Assembly (NCBI GenBank): GCA_000004985.1 | Contig: GG738905.1 | Length of the DNA stretch: 64,000 bases | Reading direction: 5' to 3' (one strand) | Origin: Naegleria gruberi | Lineage: Eukaryota | Part shown: positions 11,721 to 55,063 of the stretch, in pieces | Numbering within the stretch: the stretch's first letter is position 1 | Layout: each line of letters begins with the position of its first letter | Position numbers and translations under genes: made by a program | Notes under the pieces: model-generated | Told to the model about the DNA's origin: nothing | Database searches by the model: none | Seen by the model: only the letters and a program-made list of their open reading frames with translations

Positions 11721-12611
11721 TTATTTGAAATATTTACATTCTGGGTTTTGGCGTTTACCATGTCCAAAACCTGGTAAATTCTTAGCATCTGGTTGTTGAG
11801 AAGCATAAACAGCAGCAGGAATGAGCTTTTTAGTAGTAGGTGCTTCCATATCAAATGATGTAAGATCAGTATATTGATTAAGTGGTGAGAAGAAAGAATT
11901 CGCTCTCAAATAATTGGCCCAAGAAAATTCTTGGAATTCTTGGTCAATCTTACCATAACCTCCTTGTCTTCTATCGAAATAAGCAAGAGAACGGAATGGA
12001 TCATTCTTTAAATACATAACTGAGGATGGAAGAGAATCTGGGAAATTATGTAATGGCTTGCCAAATTCATCATATGTATATGTCAAATTGTTCTTAATGA
12101 GAGTATTCCAGAAATTTGTCTTTGATAAGGTTGAATAATCTCTTTGAATAGTAGCGTAGACATATCTTTCAGTAATGTCACTATACTTTGGTGGAAGATA
12201 AGAACCCCTCATCATGAAAATAGCATAAATTAAATGGTGATGATCAGTAATATACAGACTAGAATTAGAATGGGTATGTTGATGATTAGAGTATGGACCG
12301 ATAACAACCGGAACTGGCTTCTTTTCTAATTGTTTGAAGAAGTCACCATTTTCAGCTAGTTCTTCCAATTTATCTCTTTTACATGCAGCAGCTACATAAC
12401 CAATTGGTAATTGTGTTGGAAAAGCATCAACAATTTTCATCAAACAAGTATCACCTTGCTTTGCAACACCCTTGTTAATCAAATCAAAACAGAAAACAGG
12501 TTCCGATGATTCTTTAGGTCCCTTAATCTTGAACCTTTCTTGGGGTGTTGCTGTTTGCACATAAATAACACCTAATACCAAAAGGATAGTTAATAGCGAG
12601 AACCCTCTCAT
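11721..12611 (-). CDS. secreted hypothetical protein (about 297 aa from the MRGFSLL start)
   Basis: Signal peptide MRGFSLLTILLVLGVIYVQTA with a poly-A context before the ATG. His-rich patch (NHQHTHSN, DHHHL). No family recognised. The track ORF extends upstream with a non-signal sequence, so the internal ATG is preferred. Confidence 0.45.
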   Translation of the reverse strand: MRGFSLLTILLVLGVIYVQTATPQERFKIKGPKESSEPVFCFDLINKGVAKQGDTCLMKIVDAFPTQLPIGYVAAACKRDKLEELAENGDFFKQLEKKPVPVVIGPYSNHQHTHSNSSLYITDHHHLIYAIFMMRGSYLPPKYSDITERYVYATIQRDYSTLSKTNFWNTLIKNNLTYTYDEFGKPLHNFPDSLPSSVMYLKNDPFRSLAYFDRRQGGYGKIDQEFQEFSWANYLRANSFFSPLNQYTDLTSFDMEAPTTKKLIPAAVYASQQPDAKNLPGFGHGKRQNPECKYFK

Positions 12612-12949
12612 CTTTTTTTTATTAAGATTTTTCGGAGTGTTGATATTGAGGCAGTGTAAGCTTTTAACAACAAAGATAAATAATGCGTACACATTTCTTT
12701 CTGTTAGTGAACCTTTCAATCTCATAGCATTTCAGTTTTTTGAAATTAGCTTTTCGAAATGTTCCCTCTGTAAATAGTTTTAGGAAACTAAATGAATATG
12801 AATCAATAATTAAGGGAATCAATGAGATGTAATAGTTGTAAACGGATTCTTATTTGATTGGATTAGTGGCGGCGGAATAGTTTTTTTTAGAATGAGGAAC
12901 GCTATTTATGTGGTGGAATTTTGACGTCAATATCAAACCAATCAAAAAA

Positions 12950-23807: not shown

Positions 23808-26501
23808 TTAAATAAACAATACGGATAAAATAGAAATGATTATTACATCTAAACTAAGGATGGCCATGAATGATGAATTAATTACAGAACCTCCACCAAC
23901 TACTTTCTTACTTTGGCTAGTGATTGGACAATTAGATGCCATTATTTGGTAGGATCCATAATAATCCAATCCTATTTCAATACCATTTGTTGTCTTTGAT
24001 ATCTTTGAAATTCCACCATTTCCAACAGTACTTCCAATAGAGTAGACCTTTGAATTAATACTCACACATGATGCACTTGAAATCTGTTGAAGAACTACAG
24101 TTCCCTTTGATTTTGGAGGAACTTCAACAGTAATAGAAAAGAGGTTATTAGAATTGGACCAATACACTGATAACTTTCCGTTTGGAGTTTGTACTGCTCC
24201 TTTAGCCCATGTTAATGAACCAGTTTGAGGTTTTACAACCCATTCAGAGTAACCAGTACTAGTAGGTCTGATTCCTAGAACGTATTTTGAAAGCAATGGA
24301 GAAACGCCACCACTCCAAGCATGAGCAAAACTGTTTGAGGCGCTTTGAGTGGCTCCAATTTCAATACTTTCCCAAAAAGCATTGGTAAAGTAAGGTCCCT
24401 CAACAGTCATTGGTGTCCAAACTGAATTAATAATATCAAATGCATGATCTTCTCTATTTGATTCAAATGCTGCTGCTGCATGGAAGTAAGAAATGTATGG
24501 AGAGGTAAAAGATGCTCCAGCATTCTTGAATGTTAAATAATTAGAGCCAGACTTCAATTGATCTTTCATAGTATCCAGTAATGTGCTGGAAAAGTTCTTT
24601 CCTCTCAAAGATGCAATGCCTGATAATATTGCGAATGCATTGGTATCCTGAGCTATGCCAGACTTTTGATCTGAAATAATGTAAGTACCCGAGTTTGTAT
24701 CAAACAACTTTTCATTAACTAGTTGTTTTGTAGAGTTAGCTCTTATTAAGTACGTTTCAGCCAAATTTGTTTCTCCAACTGCTTTTGCCAAAACTGAAGC
24801 AGATTCCATTGCCATAGCATATTGAATATTTAGTTTTGTAAATCTTCCCAAAAGCATTCCTAAACTTGGATAAAAGTCATAGGTCCAATTTGGATTAACA
24901 CCTTGCAACAAACCATCACTACCTTTAAGAGAATCGAAAGCATTAATGAGTAATTTCAATCTTGTCCATTGTTCCTTAACAAAAGATAAATCGCCAGAAT
25001 ATAGATAGTATTCCTCAATAGCTGATAACGAAGCTAAAAAGTATGTATAACTGTAAAATATTGGTGTTACAAAATCGTCAGATGGATCAATGGTTTGATA
25101 AGGGAAACCAGTACCAATTCTAGAAGAAACAAATCCACTTTTCAATTGATAGGATGTGCATATTCCAAGAGTTCCACTTGCATATTCATTAGCATAATAA
25201 GAATAGTATAATAATGGGCCTGCTACGAGTAAGTCACCACTCCAAACATTACGATCTCTCTTAGCACCATCCAGAATTACAGCTACAGGGTTGGTTCCAA
25301 CTCCAAAATCATGAGCTGATTGTTTTGATGTGAGAGGATCTTGATGAAGAATGCTACCACTGACATCAACTACTTTAAGATTCTTAATAAATGCACTTTG
25401 ATACTTTTTAGCAGAAAATCCAACTCCACCTGGAACAACTGATGGGATGTATGGATTAGTGGACTGAGGAAGATTAATATCAAATATCAAGGCACCATCT
25501 ATATAAACCTTAAATACAAGTTGATTAACAGAAGCAAATACATCATACCATTGATTTTCAACCAAGTTAGGAAGCGAAGTATTGTAATACAAGGTTTCAT
25601 AAGGGTAAAGCTCTTGTGCACTTATTACTTGAATCATATTTGGATTATGAGAACTATTTAGGCTATTTAAGGTGACTCTTGTTTCAGAATAGTCGTTTGA
25701 TCTAATAGCAAAAGAAATACCATTCTTCATAAATAGAGTAGAGAAGGATACATTATAATTAATCCATGACATTCCCTTTAAAAAGACACCTGCAGTACCT
25801 GGTGAAATATAAAGACCTTGATCAGTGCTAATAAACCCAGGTTGAACAGTTCTTGGTGGGACCATGTTCAATTGTAAAGTTCTTACCCCCATATTCCACA
25901 TCTTGTTGTAAACCTCATTAGAACAAGAGAAAGCACCATTAGATTGAGAAGGATCTCTGGTATAGATAGCTGATGTGAATGAAACAGAAGAGATGGTAAT
26001 AGAAGCTCCAACAGTAAGTAATTCAATTCTCTGATAACGTTGAGCTCCTTGGATACCATTTGTATCAAAATGGCCAGCTATTTCAATGGTATGGATATTT
26101 ACTCTGTCCAAATCAAAGGCACGAATCATTGGATTGAACAACATGTCGCCATCCTTAATATTTGGAAGACTTTCAGAATAGGATACTCTAATTTCTATTG
26201 GACTTTGAGAAATGGATGCAATGTCAAACATTGGAAAACCAGCAACATTTTGTCCATAATCCAAAACAATGGAAGCAAGATTACCAGACATGTCATTATT
26301 GAGAGTAAATGGAAACATTCCATCAGCACCTGCAACAGTAACACTACCATTCACAGATAAAACAGATTTTGGTTTTTGGACAAGTGGCAAATCAGCAATA
26401 CTGCTGTCACCATTCACAAACATTTCATTGAGGTTAACCCACAACGCAACCAAAACGCTTAATACCAAGCATAAAACAGCTCTACTAGTTGTAGTTGTCA
26501 T
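23808..26501 (-). CDS. secreted (alpha/alpha)6-barrel glycoside hydrolase, alpha-L-rhamnosidase (GH78)-like, 897 aa, intronless
   Basis: Signal peptide MTTTTSRAVLCLVLSVLVALWVNL. The motif KRDRNVWSGD resembles the GH78 catalytic-domain R(D/E)RxGWxGD box. Size and composition fit bacterial or fungal rhamnosidases. The family is not certain (GH78 versus a related six-hairpin glycosidase). Confidence 0.5.
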   Translation of the reverse strand: MTTTTSRAVLCLVLSVLVALWVNLNEMFVNGDSSIADLPLVQKPKSVLSVNGSVTVAGADGMFPFTLNNDMSGNLASIVLDYGQNVAGFPMFDIASISQSPIEIRVSYSESLPNIKDGDMLFNPMIRAFDLDRVNIHTIEIAGHFDTNGIQGAQRYQRIELLTVGASITISSVSFTSAIYTRDPSQSNGAFSCSNEVYNKMWNMGVRTLQLNMVPPRTVQPGFISTDQGLYISPGTAGVFLKGMSWINYNVSFSTLFMKNGISFAIRSNDYSETRVTLNSLNSSHNPNMIQVISAQELYPYETLYYNTSLPNLVENQWYDVFASVNQLVFKVYIDGALIFDINLPQSTNPYIPSVVPGGVGFSAKKYQSAFIKNLKVVDVSGSILHQDPLTSKQSAHDFGVGTNPVAVILDGAKRDRNVWSGDLLVAGPLLYYSYYANEYASGTLGICTSYQLKSGFVSSRIGTGFPYQTIDPSDDFVTPIFYSYTYFLASLSAIEEYYLYSGDLSFVKEQWTRLKLLINAFDSLKGSDGLLQGVNPNWTYDFYPSLGMLLGRFTKLNIQYAMAMESASVLAKAVGETNLAETYLIRANSTKQLVNEKLFDTNSGTYIISDQKSGIAQDTNAFAILSGIASLRGKNFSSTLLDTMKDQLKSGSNYLTFKNAGASFTSPYISYFHAAAAFESNREDHAFDIINSVWTPMTVEGPYFTNAFWESIEIGATQSASNSFAHAWSGGVSPLLSKYVLGIRPTSTGYSEWVVKPQTGSLTWAKGAVQTPNGKLSVYWSNSNNLFSITVEVPPKSKGTVVLQQISSASCVSINSKVYSIGSTVGNGGISKISKTTNGIEIGLDYYGSYQIMASNCPITSQSKKVVGGGSVINSSFMAILSLDVIIISILSVLFI

Positions 26502-32638: not shown

Positions 32639-33656
32639 CTAGAGATTTCTATGGAATGGAGTATCATAATAACCAGTAATATCAGGTCCCAAAGGAACGA
32701 TTCCAAATCCATTAATTCTTCTATGAGATCCAAAGTAGTGCTTTTTAGTTTGGTCAACATTAAAAGTTTGTGAAAGAATTCCACCATCCAATTGATAAAC
32801 TTCCTTCATGTAATTATAAATATTTGGATAACCATGTCTAAGAGATTTCAAATTACATTTAAAGTGAGTATAATAAACAATGTCAAATCTCAATAAAGTT
32901 GGTAATAATCTCAAATCAGCTTCTGTCACATGTTTGCTTCCCTTTACAATAAATCTTTGACTTGACAAGATATTTTCCAATTCATCCAAAGTTTTAAAAA
33001 GTGCATGGAAAGCTTCTTCATATGCTTGTTGTTTCTGAGCAAATCCACATTTATAAACTCCATCATTAATGTTAGGATAGACCCATTCATTGACTTTATC
33101 AATTTCACTTCTCAATTCTGATGGATATAAATCAAGTGATTGATTTCTTGTTGCAAGGGAATTAAATTGATCATTCATCATTCGAATAATTTCACTTGAT
33201 TCATTATTTACAATTAAATGTTGTTTCTTATCGTATAGAACTGGAACTGTAATTTTACCTTCGTAATTTGGATTAGATTGCAAGTAGATTTCTCTCAAGA
33301 ATTTGGCATCCAATCCAGAGATGGTGTCTTGATCACCTTCATGACCAAATCTCCAACCCTCTTTCGAATATTAAATAACTTTCGTGTATTTCAATTTACT
33401 TACCTTCTCCAAGAAAGTTATCAACAAAAACAACAGGAATAATCTTCTCTAATCCCTTCAATGTTCTAACAAGATCTGTTCTATGACACCAAGGACATGC
33501 GTAAGCTAAGATCAAAGCATATCTATCAGATTCTAATGGAAACTGTTCAGAACCAACAAATTCTCTAAATTTACTTGCAGTTCTAACGAATTTTCCATGA
33601 TCATTCTTAACCTCTGCATTGAAATCATAAATCTTGTGTGGTGAAGTGTTTGACAT
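32639..33656 (-). CDS. Xi-class glutathione transferase / glutathionyl-hydroquinone reductase (ECM4/YqjG-like), 2 exons
   Basis: Exons are 33404..33656 and 32639..33360, with a 43-nt intron (GTAAGT..CGAAAG) at 33361..33403. Diagnostic active-site box YACPWCHRTDLVRTLKGLE (the CPWxHR of GHR enzymes) and a downstream GWRFGHEGD stretch. Confidence 0.75.
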
Positions 33657-38474: not shown

Positions 38475-39425
38475 TTGTTTAGAACAAACTTCTACAATAA
38501 GAGTAGTGGAACATGTGAAGTGATAGAAGGGCCTGTTCTCATTACAAAAACACCAGGTCTATTCAGATCCGATATGAGACTATTCCAGGCAGTGAAGAAA
38601 GATTGCTTGACCCATTTAAAAGATGTAGTTGTGTTTTCCTCTTTAGGACCAGAATTTGTACCTTCTCTGATATCTGGAGCTGATTTAGATGGTGACCATT
38701 TTTACATTTTCTGGGATTCTGAGCTTGTGGAGAATATACAATGTGTTGATGAAAAGGAACCATCATCCATATTATCGAATACACCAGTCAATAATAACTC
38801 ATTGAATACTTACAATTGGAGCTGTCTCTATACAAACATTCCAACTTTTTCAGAAGATGTTATCGACAATGTTGGTTTAGAGGATGAATTTGATAATTAT
38901 GAAATAGCCATTAAGAAGTCGTATCAAAAATTGCTATTAGCTCTTGACACTTTCAAATATTGCTCCTTCTCTCACTTACTTGAATTGAGAAGAATTTTTG
39001 TTGATTACTTTGCAATTAATTGGGCAAACAATAATGAATATTACAATATCATGTATCAAATCGCAAATGCCATTACCTGCACCATAGACGCTCCAAAACA
39101 TGGACAGTGGAAAGAATGGAAAGACTTTCTGCCAATCATATCAAATATTCCAAAAAGCCCACATTATTTACTTACAGGGAATTGTACTATTTCACATTCG
39201 ATATTTGGTAAAAATGTAAAGATTGAATGCAATTATGATGGAAATGGTGGCGAAGCTTTTTACCTACTATTCGAAAATTGCCTTAAGAAATATGATTTAG
39301 AAACGTATGACCCTATTTGGACATCTCCAACTCTTGAAAATCCAATTGCAATAGATATTCATGATGACACCAAGGACTACAGAAATAATTTAATCAGTAT
39401 TGGATCAAGCATCAAATCAAATTGA
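38475..39425 (+). CDS. RNA-dependent RNA polymerase (eukaryotic RDR/QDE-1 type) C-terminal fragment containing the DLDGD catalytic motif; possibly truncated or pseudogenic
   Basis: GPVLITKTPGLFRSDMRLFQAVKK...VVFSSLGPEFVPSLISGADLDGDHFYIFWD matches the RDR catalytic core. The ORF is only 316 aa and begins at TTG. An in-frame stop lies just upstream and the first ATG is 34 codons in. Only about 170 bp separate it from the start of the neighbouring minus-strand gene, so there is no room for the roughly 600-aa N-terminal part of a full RDR. Confidence 0.45.
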   Translation: MFRTNFYNKSSGTCEVIEGPVLITKTPGLFRSDMRLFQAVKKDCLTHLKDVVVFSSLGPEFVPSLISGADLDGDHFYIFWDSELVENIQCVDEKEPSSILSNTPVNNNSLNTYNWSCLYTNIPTFSEDVIDNVGLEDEFDNYEIAIKKSYQKLLLALDTFKYCSFSHLLELRRIFVDYFAINWANNNEYYNIMYQIANAITCTIDAPKHGQWKEWKDFLPIISNIPKSPHYLLTGNCTISHSIFGKNVKIECNYDGNGGEAFYLLFENCLKKYDLETYDPIWTSPTLENPIAIDIHDDTKDYRNNLISIGSSIKSN

Positions 39426-39477
39426 AATAATAATAATCATAAACTAACTATTAAAGACATGTTAAATATTATTTAAT

Positions 39478-39720
39478 TTATTTATTAACACCTGGGAAGG
39501 AATCAACGTATTTAATCTTAAAATCAGGGAAGGAATCAACAATTTTAATCTTGTAATCAGGGAAGGAATCAACAATTTTCCATTTACCTGCAGAATCAGG
39601 GAAGGAATCAACAAGTTTAACTTTGAGATCAGGGAAGGAATCGACAATTTTAACTTTATAATCTGGGAAACTGTCAACGAATTTAATCTTTCCGTAAATC
39701 TTGGAAACGTCTGGAGCCAT
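39478..39720 (-). CDS. small ORF (80 aa) made of seven tandem copies of an 11-aa unit (K-x-K-x-VDSFPD-x)
   Basis: MAPDVSKIYG KIKFVDSFPDY KVKIVDSFPDL KVKLVDSFPDS ... KIKYVDSFPGVNK. It is encoded by a 33-bp tandem DNA repeat (atcagggaaggaatcaacaattttaatcttgta), and the coding frame is maintained across all copies. Confidence 0.4.
   Translation of the reverse strand: MAPDVSKIYGKIKFVDSFPDYKVKIVDSFPDLKVKLVDSFPDSAGKWKIVDSFPDYKIKIVDSFPDFKIKYVDSFPGVNK
39490..39700. repeat. 33-bp tandem repeat array (about 6.5 copies), in-frame with ORF 39478..39720
   Basis: Directly visible periodicity on the plus strand of the motif gggaaggaatcaacaa (written here) recurring every 33 bp, with minor substitutions. 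Confidence 0.8.
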
Positions 39721-39952
39721 TGTTTATTTGTTTTTTTTTGATCTAATTAAAACTACATCTTTTCTAATCAAAATGATTTTATTGGTTGTTGTGAAATTCA
39801 CACAACATCATGTTCTGACATGTTCCAATAAAAAAGGAAGAAAATGATGCTTCATCATTATATCCATCAATCGAGTCAGTGGTTACAATATTAGAAACTA
39901 CAGATATTTTACAGTTTCAAGTTGATAGGTTTTTATTTTAAACCAAGTTTAA

Positions 39953-41506
39953 TTACAATTCATCCTTACGAGTTGTTGGTGTAAGGATTTTGAGGTAAAT
40001 TTCAAGGATTTTCTTTTCTGATTGAATGTATCTGACAGCACATTTCTGAGACATGGTCACAGGAAGTCTTTTTCCTAGTATTGATTCATTTTCTTGTATC
40101 ATTTCAATAATATTATCCAATCTTTGTTTGATGAGTCCTCTAATTGTTTCAATGACAATCTTTTCATTTCTATCCGAAATTGGGTTGATTAGGATTTTAG
40201 CAATCATGTCTCTCTTCTGATCCAATGGTGCTAATGAATTGGCAATATCAGAGAGGGCCTTAATTTCCACTGAATCACAGCTCAATATTCTCATAATGGC
40301 AATAATATTCGGATCAAATATTTCACTGAGAGTATGTTCTACTAAATTAAAGCTATCATCATTATAGTAGAGAGTTTGTGTGAGATGATATTCATCAAGG
40401 GAGGTCATTGAGAGTAAACGCACTCTTTGATTGTTGAGCTTCTTATCGACAGTGGACATTCTCCTCATTACAGATTCTCTCATATCAATAACAGTGATAG
40501 TATTATTCAAAAACTCAATTTCTGGATCATCCAATGGACAAAAACCATAATCCATCATGAGAATATGATTCAGTGTTGGAGTTAATTTTCCATACTTTAC
40601 AAAAAGTTGATTTCCAGCTTTGACTCTCTTTGATGTTTTGAAAATGAGCTCATTGGTCTTCTTGTCAGTGTAAGAAATTACATTTGCACCAGTCTTTGAA
40701 AAGTTAATAATATCACCCAATGGAACAAAACATGAACGATCTGTCTTGATTCTGTAATCATAAATCGAGTGAATTCTAGACCAACTGAGAGAAACAAAAT
40801 GTTCAAATAATCCAAGAGTAATTGAAGAAGTGTTTCTAATTGGTTCTAATACTGTCAAATCATTCAATAATGGATTGACAATTTTTTGAAATGAATTGGC
40901 AATACTTTGTCTTCTTGTAAGAGCTGATGGAAGTAATGTAGACCCCTTCAATAATGTTAATTCTTCTCCACCAAAAAGGAATGCTACTTTTGGACCTTCA
41001 TCACGAAATGGTCTTGGTAGAGATCCAATATATGGAGTGAATTTGACAGCATCAGCATCAAACTTCATTTCAGGATTGCTTGATTGAGCCAAATTAAATA
41101 AATAAACAATCATCAAAACCATTGCATTAAAAATTGACAAATCCCCTTCCTGTAATCTCTTTAAAGTATCCAATGACTTGGCATTCTCATGTTTAAATAA
41201 TTTTTCAAATATAAATTTCGAATCCAGCAAGGTCTCTTGTTTTAATTTAAACAAAATTGTATTCTGTTTAATATCTTTAGTGGCAACAAGTGCCTTTCCA
41301 AAATCAACCACTTGTTTAATTTCAAATAAATTATCATTCACCTCCGAATGTTCCTCTTCTCTCATCCACTTTGTCAATAAATTAAATCTTTCATCATTCG
41401 ATGCCACAACAACACTCCAATGATAACAAAATACCATCATTGTCATCAATAAGAACATCATCACAAAATTCCTTGATGATGAATGATGAGCTTTCATGTT
41501 GGGCAT
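39953..41506 (-). CDS. SET-domain lysine methyltransferase (SETD6/RBCMT-like, with Rubisco-LSMT-type substrate-binding region), 517 aa
   Basis: N-SET FGKALVATKDIKQNTILFKL. Post-SET region CFVPLGDIINFSKTGANVISY...AGNQLFVKYGK (compare ALVPxxDxxNH...GEExxxxYG). Hydrophobic N-terminus. Intronless. Confidence 0.5.
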   Translation of the reverse strand: MPNMKAHHSSSRNFVMMFLLMTMMVFCYHWSVVVASNDERFNLLTKWMREEEHSEVNDNLFEIKQVVDFGKALVATKDIKQNTILFKLKQETLLDSKFIFEKLFKHENAKSLDTLKRLQEGDLSIFNAMVLMIVYLFNLAQSSNPEMKFDADAVKFTPYIGSLPRPFRDEGPKVAFLFGGEELTLLKGSTLLPSALTRRQSIANSFQKIVNPLLNDLTVLEPIRNTSSITLGLFEHFVSLSWSRIHSIYDYRIKTDRSCFVPLGDIINFSKTGANVISYTDKKTNELIFKTSKRVKAGNQLFVKYGKLTPTLNHILMMDYGFCPLDDPEIEFLNNTITVIDMRESVMRRMSTVDKKLNNQRVRLLSMTSLDEYHLTQTLYYNDDSFNLVEHTLSEIFDPNIIAIMRILSCDSVEIKALSDIANSLAPLDQKRDMIAKILINPISDRNEKIVIETIRGLIKQRLDNIIEMIQENESILGKRLPVTMSQKCAVRYIQSEKKILEIYLKILTPTTRKDEL

Positions 41507-41864
41507 TTTTTTTAATTATAATTTTATTCTCCTATTTAACATGATTGTTGAGGATTCGCTTTGATTGTTAATAGGAGAATTGCTGAAATCAAAGCTCAAT
41601 ATTTTCTGTTTCAACTTGATCGAATTTAAAGAAAATTCCATTTGAATAATTAAAGGAATGTTTTCTCCAAGTTAAATCTCAGAGAAATGTTAATCAAGAT
41701 TGAAGCAAGGTTATGGGAATTGTCTGTTATTAGATAAGGTGCATAATAGAGCAAATTATCTGAAAAAGCAATAAAACTAAATCCCAAAAATCTCTTTTGA
41801 CTATTTTCCTTTTTGAGAAATTCGATTCATATTTTCAAACTTTGAAAATCATATTATTCAATGT

Positions 41865-42899
41865 TTATTCACAATCATCAACAGAAGTGATGCTAACATC
41901 ACATCTCCAAGTTGTTTTATACATTTTCCTTCTGATATGTTCTTCATATCTTGAAATGAAGAAATTATCTTTCAGTATAACTACTCTGCCTGATCTCCAC
42001 TCAGTAACAAGTAGGTCTCCATTTCGGTCATTCAAAGAGATACCCAGAGGATAATCAACACCAGTAACACTCTCGAGATATTCTCCCTCAGATGTGAATA
42101 TCTGTATTCTATCATTAAAGCTATCTGAAACATAAATATTTCCAGTTCTTTTCTCAACACAGACAGAACATGGCTCATTGAACTCGCCATTTTCCCTTCC
42201 TCGTTTACCAAAACTTTTGATAAACTTTCCCTCCTTAGATATTATTTGAACTCTATGATTGTATCTATCTGTAATAATTAAATTATCATCATTTCCGAAA
42301 CAAATATTTCTTGATTGAATAAATTCCAAATTCCCACTTCCATGTTTTCCAAATTCCCTCACATAATTACCGTTGGAATCTAAAACAAGAATTCTATTAT
42401 TTGCTTGATCACAAAGATAAATATTTCGCTCCTTTGAATTGAAATCAATAGCAATTCCAGAAGGTAAATTAAAACCACCAGTAGTTTTCCAAATTAATTT
42501 TCCAAAGACTGAATATTTGTACAATGTATTATCATTTGATCCAAATAATATTGTTGAATCCTCTGGATTGAACTCAATATAAAATGGAATATCTGCACCA
42601 CAATCAATTTTGTATTTCCATTCGTATGTATTTAACTCAAACACTTGAATAGCGTTATTTCCTGAATCACAAACAAATATCAGTTCTTGATTATTATCTA
42701 CGCACATATCGTATGGATTGGAAAACCTTCTATTTACTCCCAATATTTTCTTATAACAGTATCTTACATTGTTTGTGTTGATCATCACTTCCTTCCCGTC
42801 TTCTTCTTCGACAACCGTTTGCCAATCTAGTTCTTCTTCCTCTTGCAAATCATCATCATCGTAGAACATCTCATCTGTAAAATCATCATCATCTGACAT
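41865..42899 (-). CDS. NHL-repeat beta-propeller protein (344 aa) with an acidic N-terminus
   Basis: Repeated NHL units (FNLPSGIAIDFNSKERNIYLCDQANNRILVLDSNGNYVREFGKHGSGNLEF..., NHRVQIISKEGKFIKSFGKRGRENGEFNEPCSV..., NDRIQIFTSEGEYL). N-terminal DDDD/EEEE run. Confidence 0.6.
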   Translation of the reverse strand: MSDDDDFTDEMFYDDDDLQEEEELDWQTVVEEEDGKEVMINTNNVRYCYKKILGVNRRFSNPYDMCVDNNQELIFVCDSGNNAIQVFELNTYEWKYKIDCGADIPFYIEFNPEDSTILFGSNDNTLYKYSVFGKLIWKTTGGFNLPSGIAIDFNSKERNIYLCDQANNRILVLDSNGNYVREFGKHGSGNLEFIQSRNICFGNDDNLIITDRYNHRVQIISKEGKFIKSFGKRGRENGEFNEPCSVCVEKRTGNIYVSDSFNDRIQIFTSEGEYLESVTGVDYPLGISLNDRNGDLLVTEWRSGRVVILKDNFFISRYEEHIRRKMYKTTWRCDVSITSVDDCE

Positions 42900-43026
42900 T
42901 TTTTTTGATTGTTAACCAGTAGTCAAAGAGATAGAACTATTTTGGATTTGCTTTCGTTTACAATTTTTCCTCCATGTTCACCTTTTGCTTTATTGAACCA
43001 TTTTTAGATTAATAAATAGTTTTATT

Positions 43027-44692
43027 TTACAAGTTTTGCAAGCCCAACAATTCAGCAATTCTACGACCATAATCCTTATCAGCCTTATAGAAGATTTGTA
43101 ATTGTCTCAATTGAATTTCCTTCTTGGCATTCTTCAAGTGCAAAGCAATATTGTGAACAAGTCTAGAACGATCATATTCAGTCATAACTTCACGATACAA
43201 AGTACCAGCTTGGACGTAGTCATCATTTGGATGATTTGGCTTGGAACGAGTAATGGCACCTTGAACCTTAGTTGGGTGTTCAATCAATTGCTTAGCTTCA
43301 TATGGACCACCGAATGTGTTTGGTTCATAGTTTGGAGCAGAACCACCGTTACCATTGACAGTCATGGAACCATCTCTGAATTGACAGTTCAATTTAGCCT
43401 TAAGTGGAGCATTAATTGGAATTTGAGCATAGTTAGCGCCCAATCTATGTCTGTGAGTATCTGGATAAGAGAAAAGTCTACCTTGGAGCATCTTGTCAAG
43501 GGATGGTTCAATACCAGGAACCAAGTTAGATGGAGAGAATGCAGATTGTTCAGTTTCGGCAAAGTAATTGTTTGGATTACGATTCAAAACCATTCTACCA
43601 ACTGGAATGAGTGGATAATCCTTGTGTGCCCAAACCTTAGTAATATCAAAAACATCAACTTTGTACTTGGCAGCATCATCAACTGGCATAATTTGGAAAT
43701 AAACCTTCCAAGCTGGGCTGCTTCCTTGCTTAATTGAGTTGAACAAATCACGAGTAGCATGATCTGGATCTTCACCAGCCAAACGAGTGGCTTCTTCAAC
43801 AGTCAAATTCTTAATACCTTGTTCAGTCTTGAAGTGAATCTTAGCCCAGAAAGCTTCACCTTGTGAGTTAACCAATTTGAAAGTGTGACCAGAATAACCG
43901 TTCATGTGACGATAAGAAAATGGTGTACCTCTATCACTGAACAAAACAGTAAGTTGGTGAACTGATTCTGGAGTCAAACTCAAAAAGTCCCAGAATGCAT
44001 CAGGATCCTTCAAGTTTGATTGTGGATTTCTCTTTTGGGTATGGATAAAATCTGGGAATTTAATAGTGTCACGAATGAAGAAAACTGGAGTATTATTACC
44101 AACAAAATCATAATTTCCTTCTTCAGTATAGAATTTAACAGCAAAACCTCTTGGATCTCTATCAGAATCGGCACTACCCTTTTCACCACCAACAGTGGAA
44201 AAACGAGCAAAAACTGGAGTTCTCTTACCAACACGATTCAAGAATGCAGCCTTGGTGAATTTAGTGATATCATGAGTGACTTCAAAATAACCATGAGCAC
44301 CAGCACCCTTTGCGTGAACAACTCTTTCTGGGATTCTATTATAATGCAACAATTAAAATGTATAAAATTAATAAAACAATGTCTTATAATACTAACCTTT
44401 CACGATCAAAGTGGGCCAATTTGCTGATCAAATAAGTATCTTGCAAAAGGATTGGTCCATTATTGCCAGCTGTGAGGGAATTGTTGTTATCAGCAACTGG
44501 ATGGCCAAATTCATCAGTCAAAGTACTGTTGTTGTATAATAATATTATGAATGATGAAAAGCATTTTAATATTAATCAATCGACATATAATTTTAATGTG
44601 TCGTAAATTAAAGAAGATAGGAAAATTCGCACAAAATTGATGAGCACTAGGTTATTGCTCTGAAACCTACCTGGTGTAATCGTAGTTAAAGT
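43027..44692 (-). CDS. catalase (monofunctional heme catalase), 3 exons, 489 aa
   Basis: Exons are 44661..44692 ([11 protein letters not shown]), 44406..44525 and 43027..44344. Introns are 44526..44660 (135 nt, GTAGGT..CAACAG) and 44345..44405 (61 nt, GTTAGT..TAATAG). The spliced protein ...[27 protein letters not shown]...FSDRGTP...[14 protein letters not shown]... matches catalases nearly residue for residue. Confidence 0.9.
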
Positions 44693-45128
44693 TGGTAGAC
44701 ATTTTTTTTGTTGGAGTTTTTCTGACGAGCACAAAATCCCTATTCGCCAAACAAACGGAGAAAAATTATTGTAAATCATATGCCAATCATGGCCTGCATT
44801 CTCTCTTCAATGTTGACAGAGACCCTTTTCGTAGTTGAATAGATTGAAAACCACTCGTTCAACCCAGATAAGTGCCACTTTACAGAGAATCCTCTTAGAA
44901 GATAAAACTTCAAGCTTAGACAATATTTGGTTCTCGCACAAGAAATAGCTGGTTACAAACCATTCATTTGGTGTTCAATTGATCATTTCAAGTAATAGAA
45001 ATTAATTGAACTATTAACCTTTTAGTGGTTAAATTTGAATATAATACTTCTAAACATAGAATTCTCTAGTGTCCAATTTATTAGTTTGTACATTTAAATA
45101 AGTTATGTGATGAACAAATCAAACAAAT

Positions 45129-46121
45129 TTACAGATGGTTAGTGATTTGTTTTGGTGGTAAATCTTTGGCTAGAGATGATGCTGTTGTTTCCGACCTGTT
45201 GTTTCTTCCAGACTTTGAAGGAGAAGGATTAATAGAAGTAGACTTCCTCTTCTTTGATGTTTCACAATCAGGGCAAATATAGGTGCCAATAGAGTTTGCT
45301 TGATATTTCTTTAAACCTAAACATCTTCCATGAAACCATCTATTAAAAGGTAATGTTAATAAATATAAGATAGTAAAGAATACGTACTTATCACAACGGT
45401 CACAAGCGATCATCCAACCATAAGAAGCTGGTCTGTTACACTTGCAATAGAGTGTTTCATCCTCTTCACTGGAATCGTTTTCAGAATCATCAGAGTCTTC
45501 ACCACTATCAGAGTCACCTTTGTCTTCCTTTTTCTTATTGGCTCTATTGATAAATTGTCTTCTCTTTTTGTTTGATGAATTTGGTGAATCTGTAATAGAG
45601 GAGGTTGAAGAATTGGTATTACTACTACTACTACTTGTAGTTGGTTCCTTTCTATTTGACCCAGAATCTTCAGGTGATGAAGAATTACAAGTAGAAGAAG
45701 AAGTAGTGGTGGTTGTGGATTCGTTAGAGGGCGAGTTTGAAGCTGATACACTTTGAAGGTGTAATGATGCTAGGGCATCAATTGTTGTTGAAGTTGGTGA
45801 TAAAAGTGCGGTAAGAGGTTTTTCTGTTTTTACCTCTTCTTTGATAGGGGTAGAAGGTGGTAAAGTAGAGTTATCAATGGTGGTAGTTATCATCATAGAA
45901 TCGTTACTACTATCCAAAGTATTTTGATTATTATTATCACTTGGAGGAGGTGTAGTAGTTGTATTAATTATGGTTGGAGGTGTTGTTGGTTGTGGAGAAT
46001 GTTGAGTTGGAGAGGTTGTCATATTAAATTCTGGGTGAGTAGGAGAGGTCTTGGATTGGGAGTGGAATCTCTTTTTTAAAGGGACACTATTCATTTGTTC
46101 TGTATATGATTCGTATTTCAT
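45129..46121 (-). CDS. PHD-finger protein with a Ser/Thr/Pro-rich N-terminal region, 2 exons
   Basis: Exons are 45388..46121 and 45129..45339, with a 48-nt intron (GTACGT..TTTAATAG, TTAAC upstream) at 45340..45387. The splice restores the PHD signature ...LYCKCNRPASYGWMIACDRCDK|WFHGRCLGLKKYQANSIGTYICPDCE. Confidence 0.6.
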   Translation of the reverse strand: MKYESYTEQMNSVPLKKRFHSQSKTSPTHPEFNMTTSPTQHSPQPTTPPTIINTTTTPPPSDNNNQNTLDSSNDSMMITTTIDNSTLPPSTPIKEEVKTEKPLTALLSPTSTTIDALASLHLQSVSASNSPSNESTTTTTSSSTCNSSSPEDSGSNRKEPTTSSSSSNTNSSTSSITDSPNSSNKKRRQFINRANKKKEDKGDSDSGEDSDDSENDSSEEDETLYCKCNRPASYGWMIACDRCDKYVFFTILYLLTLPFNRWFHGRCLGLKKYQANSIGTYICPDCETSKKRKSTSINPSPSKSGRNNRSETTASSLAKDLPPKQITNHL

Positions 46122-53065: not shown

Positions 53066-54570
53066 ATGAAAGATAATGATAACGATTATCATACTATCAA
53101 ATATGTTCACAGTGAGAGGTATTTGAATGCCTGTTCAAAACTACCAGCATATAATAGACATTCGGAACAACCTTATGGTAGTGCTGCTAATTTAATACAG
53201 GAGGAAATTGATGAATTACCTTCAAGATCGGAACTTGTTCATTCTCTGATAGGTTAGTGTGATGATTGAAATATAATTTGTTGAATATGTGAGAAGAGGC
53301 TTTTGGAATTTTGGAAAAAGTGGAAAGCATTGAACCAGAAAAGGCTCTGATGAAGGATTTACAAATTTATCACTCAAAAGAATACGTTCATGCATTGTAT
53401 AAAATCGATAAAAGTTTGAAAGCAAGATCGTCATTGGGTGATAAAGAGGAAGATATGAGTGATGAAGAAGTATCGAGTGATGAATCTTCAAATAGTGATA
53501 ATGATGATGCAACTGATATTGAGGAATTAAAAAAACAATTTGGATTGGTGGATGATGCTCATGATTTTAAGGGAATGGTATGGATAAATGAAATTGGATT
53601 TTATTGAAATATTACAAATAGTTTAATTATGCTCTTTATATTGGTGGGTCCTGCAATGCCATAGCAAAAGAGGTAAATCACTTTTTGAAGAGTAGCTCTA
53701 GTGAGGAACGATTGACCATTTTGAATTTTGAAGGTGGAAGACATCATGCAAGAAAATCAAGGGCAGCTGGATTTTGTTATGTTAATGACGTAGTAATGCT
53801 ATCATTACTGATTAAAAGAAGGAAGATTCTATGTATTGATATAGATATACATCATGGTGATGGAACTGAAGAGGCTTTCTTTAGCAGTGAGAGAGTATTT
53901 ACAGTATCATTCCATCAATTTGGACCTGGACTCTATCCAGGAACTGGTACCACTGATAATAATGGAACAGGTCGAGGAAAATATCACAATCTCAATGTGC
54001 CACTAAAAGAGGGATTGTCAGATAAGAATTTTGAGAGAATTTTCACTTCAGTAATTGCAAAATCATTCGAAAAGTTTGAACCAGAAGTTGTTATTCTAGT
54101 GATGGGAGCTGATAATCTGAATGGAGATCCTCTTGGTACATGGAATTTGAGTTTGGAAAGTTTCGAATATGTAACCAATTTTGTAAAGAATGAGTTAAAG
54201 TCAAAGGTAACGATTATTGTTGGTGGAGGTAAGTTTCGAATATTTTCTCAATTTGATTTACCAAAACAATTTAGGTGGTTACAATTACATACATACTGGT
54301 AAGTGTTTTCTTTGTGAATATCTTTATTGAAATCTTAAAGCTATTGCCTATGCTACAGTTTCGAACATGATGGTAAATAATTGTAAATTACCAGAACTTA
54401 TCCCAGAACATTCATTCTTTGAATTGTACAAGAGTGTTGGATTTTCATCAAATGTTAACCATGGAGTAAAGAGGGATGAAAACACTGAACAATATCTCAA
54501 AGAAATCGAACAACAGTCAATCAAGCAAATTGATAACATCCCTCCAAAATCAAATGCCGCCCAAATTTAA
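53066..54570 (+). CDS. class I histone deacetylase of the HDAC8 type, 5 exons, 437 aa
   Basis: Exons are 53066..53252, 53294..53577, 53622..54228, 54275..54298 (a 24-nt exon encoding GYNYIHT) and 54359..54570. The introns are 41, 44, 46 and 60 nt. HDAC8-like junction and active-site strings: VHSLIE|EAFGIL, FNYALYIGGSCNAIA, GGRHHARKSRAAGFCYVND, IDIDIHHGDG, FHQFGPGLYPGTG, VGGGGYN, ELIPEHSFF. Confidence 0.85.
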
Positions 54571-54592
54571 TATTATATTTTTTTAATTAAAA

Positions 54593-55063
54593 ATGTCTCT
54601 ATTCGAACAAATGACAAGTGCCGAGCCATTATTCTGGTACTTGAGTAGTGACAGTAAATCAACTCAACATACAGATAATCCTCATCCTATAGAAGAAGAA
54701 CTTGTTTTAGAATATTTAGAACATTTCCAATTACAATTATTTTCAGCAGTATCAACAGAAGGAGCAAAAGAAAGGGATGTTCTTGCTCGGGAATATGAAT
54801 TATCATTGGAAAGACAACAACAAAACATGAATTCAATGTACCGATCTAATAGTCCATCAACAAGTTTAATGGCTGATGAATATACTGAAGAAGAGGATGA
54901 AGAACAAATTGAATATCAAGATGAAGAAGCTGCCCTTCAGGAGGAAATGGATGAAGTTGGCAGATCAATTGTTTTTGATTTAAATGATGGATATATTGAA
55001 GATATGGATGAGGTGATTGAACCATCATATGGTGGGCAGGATTTAAATGAGAGTTTCATGTAA
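54593..55063 (+). CDS. small acidic protein of unknown function (156 aa)
   Basis: ORF with an A-rich start context. D/E-rich C-terminal half (TEEEDEEQIEYQDEEAALQEEMDEV). No family recognised. Confidence 0.4.
   Translation: MSLFEQMTSAEPLFWYLSSDSKSTQHTDNPHPIEEELVLEYLEHFQLQLFSAVSTEGAKERDVLAREYELSLERQQQNMNSMYRSNSPSTSLMADEYTEEEDEEQIEYQDEEAALQEEMDEVGRSIVFDLNDGYIEDMDEVIEPSYGGQDLNESFM

What the first reader, a model, noticed from the sequence alone, without database searches (positions are those of the whole stretch)
53066..54570. HDAC8-type class I deacetylase in a genome with fungal-style features
The spliced product is closer to HDAC8 than to the HDAC1/2/3 or Rpd3/Hos2 types. Supporting strings are SLIE-AY/FG-L after the first junction, FHQFGPGLYPGTG, GGGGYN and EIP(D/E)H(E/S)FF. 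As far as I know, HDAC8 is regarded as largely metazoan. Its presence alongside a Zn2Cys6 factor and a Xi-GST is either informative about the lineage (early-diverging fungus or related protist) or marks an unusual retention. The gene also contains a 24-nt exon (54275..54298).
Basis: partly seen in the sequence, partly recalled or inferred. Interest (0 to 1): 0.55.

Follow-up and report, generated by a model that had tools for sequence, protein, structure and literature searches.

The report
Naegleria HDAC8/Hos1-type deacetylase gene
This is an intact, already annotated lysine-deacetylase gene of the amoeboflagellate Naegleria gruberi, not of a fungus; it belongs to the old HDAC8/Hos1 branch of class I deacetylases, which is found well beyond animals, so its presence here is ordinary.

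Summary
A five-exon gene at 53066-54570 (+), with 42-46-nt GT..AG introns and a 24-nt exon at 54275-54298, encodes a 442-aa protein. That protein is residue-for-residue identical to XP_002671407.1 / D2VWR1, 'histone deacetylase [Naegleria gruberi NEG-M]'. The window is therefore heterolobosean, not fungal.

The HDAC8-type call is right in a broad sense. In neighbour-joining trees the protein falls on the HDAC8/Hos1 side of class I. Support is 98% in the first tree and 100% for the induced anchor split in the largest one. Clade profiles score it about 70-100 bits higher for HDAC8 (362) and Hos1 (365) than for HDAC1/2/Rpd3 (293), HDAC3 (265) or Hos2 (222). The 50 Foldseek matches listed for its AlphaFold model, ranked by E-value, are all human HDAC8.

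At HDAC8 Trp141 the protein has Arg, as Hos1 does. The lineage also includes early-diverging fungi, oomycetes, a brown alga and other heteroloboseans. Some of these are already labelled 'histone deacetylase 8' in NCBI, so the family is not confined to animals.

The most likely role is a stand-alone zinc lysine deacetylase that recycles acetylated cohesin SMC3. This is inferred, not shown. Novelty and interest are low.

The parts
53066..53252 (+). Exon 1 (ATG at 53066; residues 1-62 and the first base of codon 63). Encodes the N-terminal strand and a heterolobosean-specific insertion in loop L1 (about residues 28-51). Ends in ...VHSLI.
   Evidence: Model; exact match to XP_002671407.1. The insertion is shared with Willaertia, and in shorter form with Acrasis and P0002/P0003, but not with the oomycete-like sequences. 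It has low pLDDT.
53253..53296 (+). Intron 1, 44 nt, GTTAGT...GAAG. An alternative acceptor 3 nt upstream would add one Glu.
   Evidence: The annotated protein uses the 53297 acceptor. N. lovaniensis reads straight through this position in tblastn, so it appears to have no intron here.
53297..53577 (+). Exon 2 (EAFGIL...DFKGM). Includes an acidic, Ser-rich insertion in loop L2 (about residues 100-140) and the substrate-binding Asp149 (= HDAC8 D101; codon 53554-53556).
   Evidence: The insertion has low pLDDT.
53578..53621 (+). Intron 2, 44 nt, GTATGG...ATAG.
53622..54228 (+). Exon 3, the catalytic core. It contains GGRHHA (R196, H197, H198; 53739-53747), DIDIHHGDG (Zn ligands D231 and H233; 53844-53852), FHQFGPGLYPGTG, and GADNLNGDP (Zn ligand D320 at 54111-54113; P326 where HDAC1 has the inositol-phosphate-binding R270).
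   Evidence: Pfam PF00850.
54229..54274 (+). Intron 3, 46 nt, GTAAGT...TTAG.
54275..54298 (+). 24-nt microexon encoding (G)GYNYIHT(A). It contains the catalytic Tyr361 (54280-54282; = HDAC8 Y306) and Asn362 of the GGGGYN signature.
   Evidence: Conserved as GGYNYIST between two introns in N. lovaniensis.
54299..54340 (+). Intron 4, 42 nt, GTAAGT...AAAG.
54341..54570 (+). Exon 5 (IAYATV...LIPEHSFF...AAQI, stop TAA at 54568-54570). There is no long C-terminal tail beyond the deacetylase fold.
   Evidence: HDAC8 aligns to near the C-terminus.

Best explanation
The locus is the Naegleria gruberi gene for XP_002671407.1, a catalytically intact zinc-dependent class I lysine deacetylase of the HDAC8/Hos1 lineage.

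Mechanism, inferred from conserved residues and the HDAC8 literature:
- Zn2+ is held by D231, H233 and D320.
- The H197-H198 pair activates water.
- Y361, encoded in the 24-nt microexon, stabilises the oxyanion.
- D149 clamps the substrate backbone.

Like HDAC8 and Hos1, the protein lacks two features of the HDAC1/2/3/Rpd3 type. It has no equivalents of the inositol-phosphate/corepressor-binding arginines (HDAC1 R270 and R306 are P326 and Ile here), and it has no C-terminal tail. It therefore probably works as a stand-alone enzyme.

By orthology its most likely physiological job is to remove the Eco1-placed acetyl groups from cohesin SMC3 so that cohesin can be reused. This step is inferred, not shown.

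Its presence reflects an old eukaryotic gene lineage retained in Discoba, stramenopiles and opisthokonts. It says nothing about a fungal affinity.
For: - Identity: exact 442-aa match to N. gruberi XP_002671407.1 / D2VWR1. The N. lovaniensis orthologue is syntenic, with the carboxyltransferase gene upstream on the - strand.
- Family: PF00850, 237 bits. The AlphaFold model has pLDDT 86.4 and pTM 0.90.
- Catalytic residues: all conserved.
- Trees: a clade of HDAC8, Hos1, oomycete-like sequences (Pythium and unnamed relatives) and heteroloboseans has bootstrap 98. The HDAC1/2/3/Rpd3/Hos2 clade that excludes this protein has bootstrap 80 with an HDLP outgroup. The induced anchor split is recovered in 100% of 200 bootstraps of a 186-sequence set.
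- Clade HMM scores: HDAC8 362, Hos1 365 and combined 389, against HDAC1/2/Rpd3 293, HDAC3 265 and Hos2 222.
- Signature residues: Pro at HDAC1 R270, where the other clade has R/K in 93 of 94; Asn in GGGGYN, where the others have Thr in 88 of 94; Ile at HDAC1 R306.
- Fold: all 50 Foldseek PDB matches listed are human HDAC8, target-normalised TM 0.87-0.94.
[quoted passage not shown] N. gruberi is listed with Smc3 (XP_002670278) and Eco1 (XP_002680835) (PMC3195147, additional file 2).
Against: - Plain phmmer against PDB sequences ranks HDAC2/HDAC1 (about 225 bits) slightly above HDAC8 (about 216 bits). Raw similarity alone is therefore not decisive.
- Only distance (NJ) trees could be built. HDAC8/Hos1-type sequences have long branches, and with the HDLP outgroup the HDAC8/Hos1 side is monophyletic in only 31-45% of bootstraps. 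It may be a basal grade rather than a clade.
- Regulatory sites of human HDAC8 are not conserved: S39 is Glu, K202 is Gln and W141 is Arg.
- No substrate, expression or localisation data exist for this protein. I could not inspect the N. gruberi SMC3 sequence for the acetylated Lys-Lys pair.
- The other HDAC paralogues of the genome could not be enumerated with these tools.
Confidence: 0.7

Rival explanations
1. It is a general chromatin HDAC of the Rpd3/HDAC1-3 kind that has merely diverged fast. It would act on histone tails inside Sin3-, NuRD- or SMRT-like corepressor complexes, and its grouping with HDAC8/Hos1 would be a long-branch artefact.
For: phmmer scores against PDB sequences are marginally higher for HDAC2/HDAC1 than for HDAC8. 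An automatic label on the Acrasis orthologue reads 'histone deacetylase 1/2'. Only NJ trees were run, and the group's monophyly against the outgroup is weak.
Against: The anchor split is recovered in 100% of bootstraps, and the HDAC1/2/3/Rpd3/Hos2 side excludes this protein in 80-91% even with the outgroup. Clade HMMs favour HDAC8/Hos1 by 70-140 bits. The corepressor/inositol-phosphate Arg residues (HDAC1 R270, R306), the HPMKPHR Met and the GGGGYT Thr are near-universal in that clade (R270 equivalent, Met and Thr 88-93 of 94; R306 78 of 94) and are all absent here. There is no C-terminal tail. All 50 listed structural matches are HDAC8.
Confidence: 0.1
2. It is an HDAC8/Hos1-lineage enzyme whose main substrate in Naegleria is not SMC3. 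The substrate could be histones directly, other non-histone proteins, or long-chain fatty-acyl lysines.
For: Human HDAC8 has many reported substrates and fatty-deacylase activity (review PMC7288346). The Naegleria protein has lineage-specific insertions in the substrate-facing loops L1 and L2. It differs from HDAC8 at Y100 (Asp), W141 (Arg) and K202 (Gln).
Against: The one function shared by the two characterised members, yeast Hos1 and human HDAC8, is SMC3 deacetylation. N. gruberi is listed with both Smc3 and the Eco1 acetyltransferase that would create the need for an eraser.
Confidence: 0.18
3. It is a decaying or mis-modelled gene: a pseudogene, or an open reading frame created by forced splicing across a dubious 24-nt exon.
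For: Microexons are easy to invent when splicing by eye.
Against: The model equals the public annotation exactly. The microexon and its flanking introns are conserved in N. lovaniensis, and its peptide is conserved in Willaertia. Every catalytic residue is intact. The model folds confidently.
Confidence: 0.02

Closest known systems
Human HDAC8 (class I; cohesin SMC3 deacetylase; PDB 1T64 and many others)
   Same: Same side of the class I tree. All 50 listed PDB fold matches are HDAC8, target-normalised TM 0.87-0.94. Shared sequence features are SLIEA(Y/F), xPGxxPGTG, GDP in place of HDAC1 GDR, and GGGGYN. Both have no long C-terminal tail and lack the HDAC1/3 inositol-phosphate-binding arginines. 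The catalytic H-H, D-H-D, Y and D101 equivalents are all conserved.
   Different: Only 27-28% identity in the structural alignments. Trp141, invariant in 24 of 24 metazoan HDAC8s, is Arg here. Y100 is Asp, the PKA site S39 is Glu and the acetylation site K202 is Gln. The Naegleria protein has an extra insertion of about 24 aa in L1 and an acidic insertion of about 40 aa in L2.
Saccharomyces cerevisiae Hos1 (NP_015393.1; Smc3 deacetylase)
   Same: Same lineage in every tree. The Hos1 profile scores the Naegleria protein as high as the HDAC8 profile does (365 vs 362 bits). Both have the GGRHHA motif, with Arg at the HDAC8 W141 position in 14 of 16 fungal Hos1-type sequences and 7 of 7 heteroloboseans. 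Both have an expanded L2 region.
   Different: Hos1 is very divergent, with the longest branch in the tree, and has a much larger L2 insertion. The Naegleria protein has GDP where yeast Hos1 has GDR. There is no evidence for any Hos1-type partner in Naegleria.
HDAC1/HDAC2/Rpd3 and HDAC3/Hos2 (corepressor-bound class I HDACs)
   Same: Same Pfam domain, fold and catalytic machinery. Raw phmmer scores are similar (HDAC2 225, Rpd3 200, HDAC3 193 bits).
   Different: Separated in all trees. The Naegleria protein lacks the HPMKPHR Met (92 of 94 in that clade), Leu at the foot-pocket position (93 of 94), the R270 equivalent (R/K 93 of 94), the R306 equivalent, the Thr of GGGGYT (88 of 94), and the C-terminal tail.

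Membership tests
Zinc-dependent histone/lysine deacetylase superfamily (Pfam PF00850), class I | Significant match to the Hist_deacetyl domain over its full length | tested here: met
   PF00850: 237.3 bits, E = 3.2e-70, profile positions 4-293 of 298.
Zinc-dependent histone/lysine deacetylase superfamily (Pfam PF00850), class I | Catalytic set: His-His dyad, Asp-His-Asp zinc ligands, and catalytic Tyr in GGGGY | tested here: met
   H197/H198, D231/H233/D320 and Y361 are present. These columns are invariant across all groups aligned.
Zinc-dependent histone/lysine deacetylase superfamily (Pfam PF00850), class I | Arginase/deacetylase alpha/beta fold | tested here: met
   AlphaFold2 model with pLDDT 86.4 and pTM 0.90. 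Foldseek against PDB gives E about 1e-31 and target-normalised TM 0.87-0.94 to HDAC8.
HDAC8/Hos1 lineage of class I | Phylogenetic placement with HDAC8 and Hos1, outside HDAC1/2/3/Rpd3/Hos2 | tested here: met
   NJ clade bootstrap 98. Induced anchor split in 100% of 200 bootstraps; the opposing clade is monophyletic in 80-91.5% with the HDLP outgroup. Caveats: distance methods only, and monophyly of the HDAC8/Hos1 side against the outgroup is only 31-45%.
HDAC8/Hos1 lineage of class I | Higher score against HDAC8/Hos1 profiles than against other class I profiles | tested here: met
   362 (metazoan HDAC8), 365 (fungal Hos1) and 389 (combined), against 293, 265 and 222 bits for HDAC1/2/Rpd3, HDAC3 and Hos2. 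Heteroloboseans were left out of all profiles.
HDAC8/Hos1 lineage of class I | Stand-alone architecture: no C-terminal tail and no equivalents of the inositol-phosphate/corepressor-binding Arg residues (HDAC1 R270, R306) | tested here: met
   P326 and Ile at those columns, where the other clade has R/K in 93 of 94 and R in 78 of 94. The protein ends about 8 residues after the position aligned to the HDAC8 C-terminus.
HDAC8/Hos1 lineage of class I | Deacetylates cohesin SMC3 (the function shared by HDAC8 and Hos1) | not testable with these tools
   Context only. Smc3 and Eco1 are listed for N. gruberi in PMC3195147 additional file 2. No biochemical data exist.
Metazoan HDAC8 in the strict sense | Trp at position 141 closing the foot pocket (24 of 24 metazoan HDAC8s sampled) | tested here: not met
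   Arg196 here, as in 7 of 7 heteroloboseans, 14 of 16 fungal Hos1-type and 9 of 9 oomycete-like sequences.
Metazoan HDAC8 in the strict sense | HDAC8 regulatory sites S39 (PKA) and K202 (acetylation) | tested here: not met
   Glu and Gln at those columns.
Rpd3/HDAC1/2 and HDAC3/Hos2 | HPMKPHR motif, Leu at the foot-pocket position, GDR(L)G, GGGGYT, and the R306 equivalent | tested here: not met
   All five columns differ from the near-invariant states of that clade.

The most novel reading that the evidence does not exclude
The HDAC8/Hos1 type is a stand-alone cohesin (SMC3) deacetylase dating back to the last eukaryotic common ancestor. Its ancestral foot-pocket residue is Arg, with Trp141 a metazoan novelty. 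It has been retained in Discoba, stramenopiles and opisthokonts, and the Naegleria enzyme really does close an Eco1-SMC3 acetylation cycle. As a further, more speculative twist, skipping the in-frame 24-nt microexon that carries the catalytic Tyr would give a splicing-level off switch.
Probability: 0.35. Interest if true: 0.35.

Novelty: already known. Interest (0 to 1): 0.14.

Why it matters
The practical value is mainly corrective.

- The window comes from Naegleria gruberi. 'Fungal-style' cues in the raw sequence should not be used to place it.
- HDAC8-like enzymes are not an animal speciality. Hos1, oomycete 'HDAC8' and the heterolobosean proteins form one old lineage.
- If the inferred function is right, the cohesin acetylation cycle (Eco1 as writer, HDAC8/Hos1 as eraser) would extend to Discoba. 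That fits the picture of a complex ancestral eukaryotic cell cycle.
- The Arg-for-Trp difference at the foot-pocket position could matter for selective inhibitor design against pathogenic Naegleria. That remains speculative.

Tried and rejected
- Raw similarity as a classifier. phmmer against PDB sequences puts HDAC2/1 (about 225 bits) just above HDAC8 (about 216 bits). This was not decisive, so I moved to trees, clade profiles and signature columns.
- Kimura-distance NJ with the HDLP outgroup. The outgroup attached inside the long-branched HDAC8/Hos1 group, so I do not claim rooted monophyly of that group.
- Whole-clade bootstrap in the 186-sequence tree. It dropped to 21-26% because three sequences jumped out of their clade: P0024 Clydaea and P0295 Hyaloraphidium (both Rpd3/HDAC2-type by label or earlier placement) and the unlabelled P0294. 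I replaced it with induced-split support on named anchors.
- ML tree programs. None is installed.
- Enumerating the other N. gruberi HDAC paralogues and fetching its SMC3. This was not possible: no eukaryotic genome collection is searchable, and protein searches list only the top 120 hits.
- Willaertia locus look-up. It failed.
- Literature searches for a published HDAC8 phylogeny including Naegleria, or for N. gruberi Rpd3 counts. They found nothing.
- A hidden intron in the L1 insertion. Rejected, because the only GT..AG candidate is 23 nt and the insertion is conserved in Willaertia and N. lovaniensis.
- Strict Zn2Cys6 motif scan of the window. No hit.

Full report
**Observation**

The region 53066-54570 (+) of an AT-rich window (32.7% G+C) contains a split deacetylase gene. 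I built the model from the three-frame translation and the splice signals.
- Exons: 53066-53252, 53297-53577, 53622-54228, 54275-54298 and 54341-54570.
- Introns: 44, 44, 46 and 42 nt, all GT..AG.
- Product: 442 aa.

An exact-sequence look-up shows that this protein is XP_002671407.1 / EFC38663.1 / UniProt D2VWR1, 'histone deacetylase [Naegleria gruberi strain NEG-M]'. The gene, all four junctions and the 24-nt exon therefore match the public annotation. The window is from Naegleria gruberi.

Pfam gives PF00850 at 237 bits, E = 3e-70. The last one reads LIPEHSFF, so its first residue differs.

The microexon encodes (G)GYNYIHT(A), including the catalytic tyrosine Y361 at 54280-54282. In N. lovaniensis the locus is syntenic, with a carboxyltransferase gene upstream on the opposite strand. 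There the same microexon (GGYNYIST) lies between two introns.

**Organism**

The closest homologues are N. lovaniensis (54% identity), Willaertia magna (48%) and Acrasis kona (37%), plus two unnamed sequences that cluster with Acrasis. Together with the exact match, this settles that the genome is heterolobosean (Discoba). It is neither an early-diverging fungus nor a relative of fungi.

**Which kind of class I HDAC**

Raw similarity is ambiguous. phmmer against PDB sequences gives HDAC2/1 about 225 bits, HDAC8 about 216, Clr6 212, Rpd3 200 and HDAC3 193.

I assembled reference anchors and verified each as an exact sequence:
- human HDAC8, HDAC1 and HDAC3, yeast Rpd3 and Aquifex HDLP against PDB;
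- yeast Hos1 and Hos2 by exact look-up.

Three trees were built.
1. In a neighbour-joining tree of 126 sequences and 367 columns, a 50-member clade has 98% bootstrap and a long stem. It contains metazoan HDAC8s, yeast Hos1, Hos1/HDAC8-like proteins of Dimargaris, Mortierellales, Glomeromycota, Endogonales and a chytrid, a Pythium group, and the heteroloboseans including this protein.
2. With more sequences and the HDLP outgroup (gamma distances), the HDAC1/2/3/Rpd3/Hos2 clade excludes the protein with 80% support. The HDAC8/Hos1 side is monophyletic in only 31% of replicates, because the outgroup sometimes attaches within it.
3. After adding oomycete, brown-algal and other sequences (186 in total), the induced split between nine HDAC1/2/3/Rpd3/Hos2 anchors and eleven HDAC8/Hos1/heterolobosean/stramenopile anchors appears in 100% of 200 bootstraps. 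The first side is monophyletic against HDLP in 91.5% and the second in 45.5%.

Three independent lines agree with the trees.
- *Profiles.* Profile HMMs were built without heteroloboseans. They score the protein 362 (metazoan HDAC8), 365 (fungal Hos1), 341 (oomycete-like) and 389 (combined). The other profiles give 293 (HDAC1/2/Rpd3), 265 (HDAC3) and 222 (Hos2).
- *Signature columns*.
  - Pro at HDAC1 R270, where the other clade has R/K in 93 of 94.
  - Ile at HDAC1 R306.
  - Asn in GGGGYN, where the others have Thr in 88 of 94.
  - No HPMKPHR Met.
  - An extra Gly in the xPGxxPGTG loop.
- *Fold.* An AlphaFold2 model (pLDDT 86.4, pTM 0.90) was searched against the PDB with Foldseek. The 50 matches listed, ranked by E-value, are all human HDAC8 (target-normalised TM 0.87-0.94).

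**HDAC8 versus Hos1**

The Naegleria protein is equidistant from both by profile score. At the position of HDAC8 Trp141 it has Arg. Trp is found in 24 of 24 metazoan HDAC8s. Arg is found in all 7 heteroloboseans, 14 of 16 fungal Hos1-type and 9 of 9 oomycete-like sequences. The other class I enzymes have Leu. The HDAC8 regulatory sites S39 and K202 are Glu and Gln here. The protein is best called HDAC8/Hos1-type, not HDAC8 in the metazoan sense.

**Distribution**

Members of this lineage with organism names include:
- heteroloboseans (Naegleria, Willaertia, Acrasis);
- many oomycetes (Phytophthora, Pythium, Nothophytophthora, Aphanomyces, Saprolegnia; Globisporangium and Achlya by similarity ranking only);
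- the brown alga Pylaiella;
- early-diverging fungi and Saccharomycotina;
- animals.

NCBI already names the Phytophthora pseudosyringae, P. ramorum, Globomyces and Entomortierella proteins 'histone deacetylase 8'. The premise that the type is largely metazoan does not hold, and its presence in Naegleria is not an unusual retention. I make no claim about which groups lack it, because only the top 120 hits per search are visible.

**Mechanism**

What is shown:
- an intact catalytic set (H197, H198, D231, H233, D320, Y361, and D149 as the D101 equivalent);
- a confident deacetylase fold;
- no C-terminal tail and no equivalents of the HDAC1/3 inositol-phosphate-binding arginines.

What is inferred: the protein is a stand-alone zinc lysine deacetylase. 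The only function shared by the two characterised relatives is removal of Eco1/ESCO-placed acetyl groups from cohesin SMC3. [quoted passage not shown] A phylogenomic survey lists Smc3 (XP_002670278) and Eco1 (XP_002680835) for N. gruberi (PMC3195147, additional file 2). SMC3 deacetylation is therefore the most likely role, but it is untested.

Two lineage-specific insertions have low model confidence and lie in the substrate-facing loops L1 and L2. They are about 24 aa after KLP and about 40 acidic, Ser-rich aa before FGLVDD. They could alter substrate choice.

**Limits**
- Only distance trees were possible.
- The rooted monophyly of the HDAC8/Hos1 group is unresolved.
- The other Naegleria HDAC paralogues and the SMC3 sequence could not be retrieved.
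- No expression data were available.

**Verdict**

The gene is already annotated. Its subtype assignment (HDAC8/Hos1-type) is a small refinement, in line with labels already used for other protists. Interest is low.

Noticed in passing
window 54571-55063: Only 22 bp separate the HDAC stop codon (54570) from the ATG (54593) of the next + strand ORF (156 aa, acidic, no Pfam match). The N. lovaniensis annotation (P0162, 1117 aa) runs the HDAC gene into downstream sequence, which is probably a fused gene model.
   Followed up: partly
L001 3001-4600 (N. lovaniensis orthologue): Intron positions differ between the two Naegleria species. From tblastn, N. lovaniensis lacks the N. gruberi intron 1 and has about 35 extra residues after FKIFH. 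It appears to have an additional intron at ...GQGR|GK... The 24-nt microexon is kept.
   Followed up: partly
window 32639-33497 (-): A GST gene (GST_C_2 and GST_N_2) with an upstream exon carrying an ACPWCH motif, as in Xi-class GSTs / glutathionyl-hydroquinone reductases.
   Followed up: partly
window, whole (six frames): A strict Zn2Cys6 pattern (C-x2-C-x6-C-x5-12-C-x2-C-x6-8-C) has no hit within any single reading-frame stretch. No scanned ORF of 200 aa or more hit Pfam Zn_clus.
   Followed up: partly
window 38475-46121: A cluster of chromatin- and RNA-related ORFs lies upstream: an RdRP-domain fragment (38475-39425, +), a SET / Rubisco-LSMT-like methyltransferase (39953-41506, -) and a PHD-finger protein (45129-46121, -). 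A catalase (43027-44352, -) sits between them.
   Followed up: no
window 23808-26501 (-) and 11721-12725 (-): An intronless 897-aa ORF matches the bacterial alpha-L-rhamnosidase domains, and a ParB-like nuclease (ParBc_2) ORF is also present. Both are possible bacterial-type acquisitions.
   Followed up: no
window 55226-59383 (+): An uninterrupted 1385-aa ORF with no Pfam match.
   Followed up: no
window 53739-53741 (codon R196): Arg occupies the foot-pocket position, which is Trp in all sampled metazoan HDAC8s and Leu in HDAC1-3. Arg is shared by Hos1, oomycete and heterolobosean members, so Trp141 looks like a metazoan novelty. This could bear on inhibitor selectivity.
   Followed up: partly
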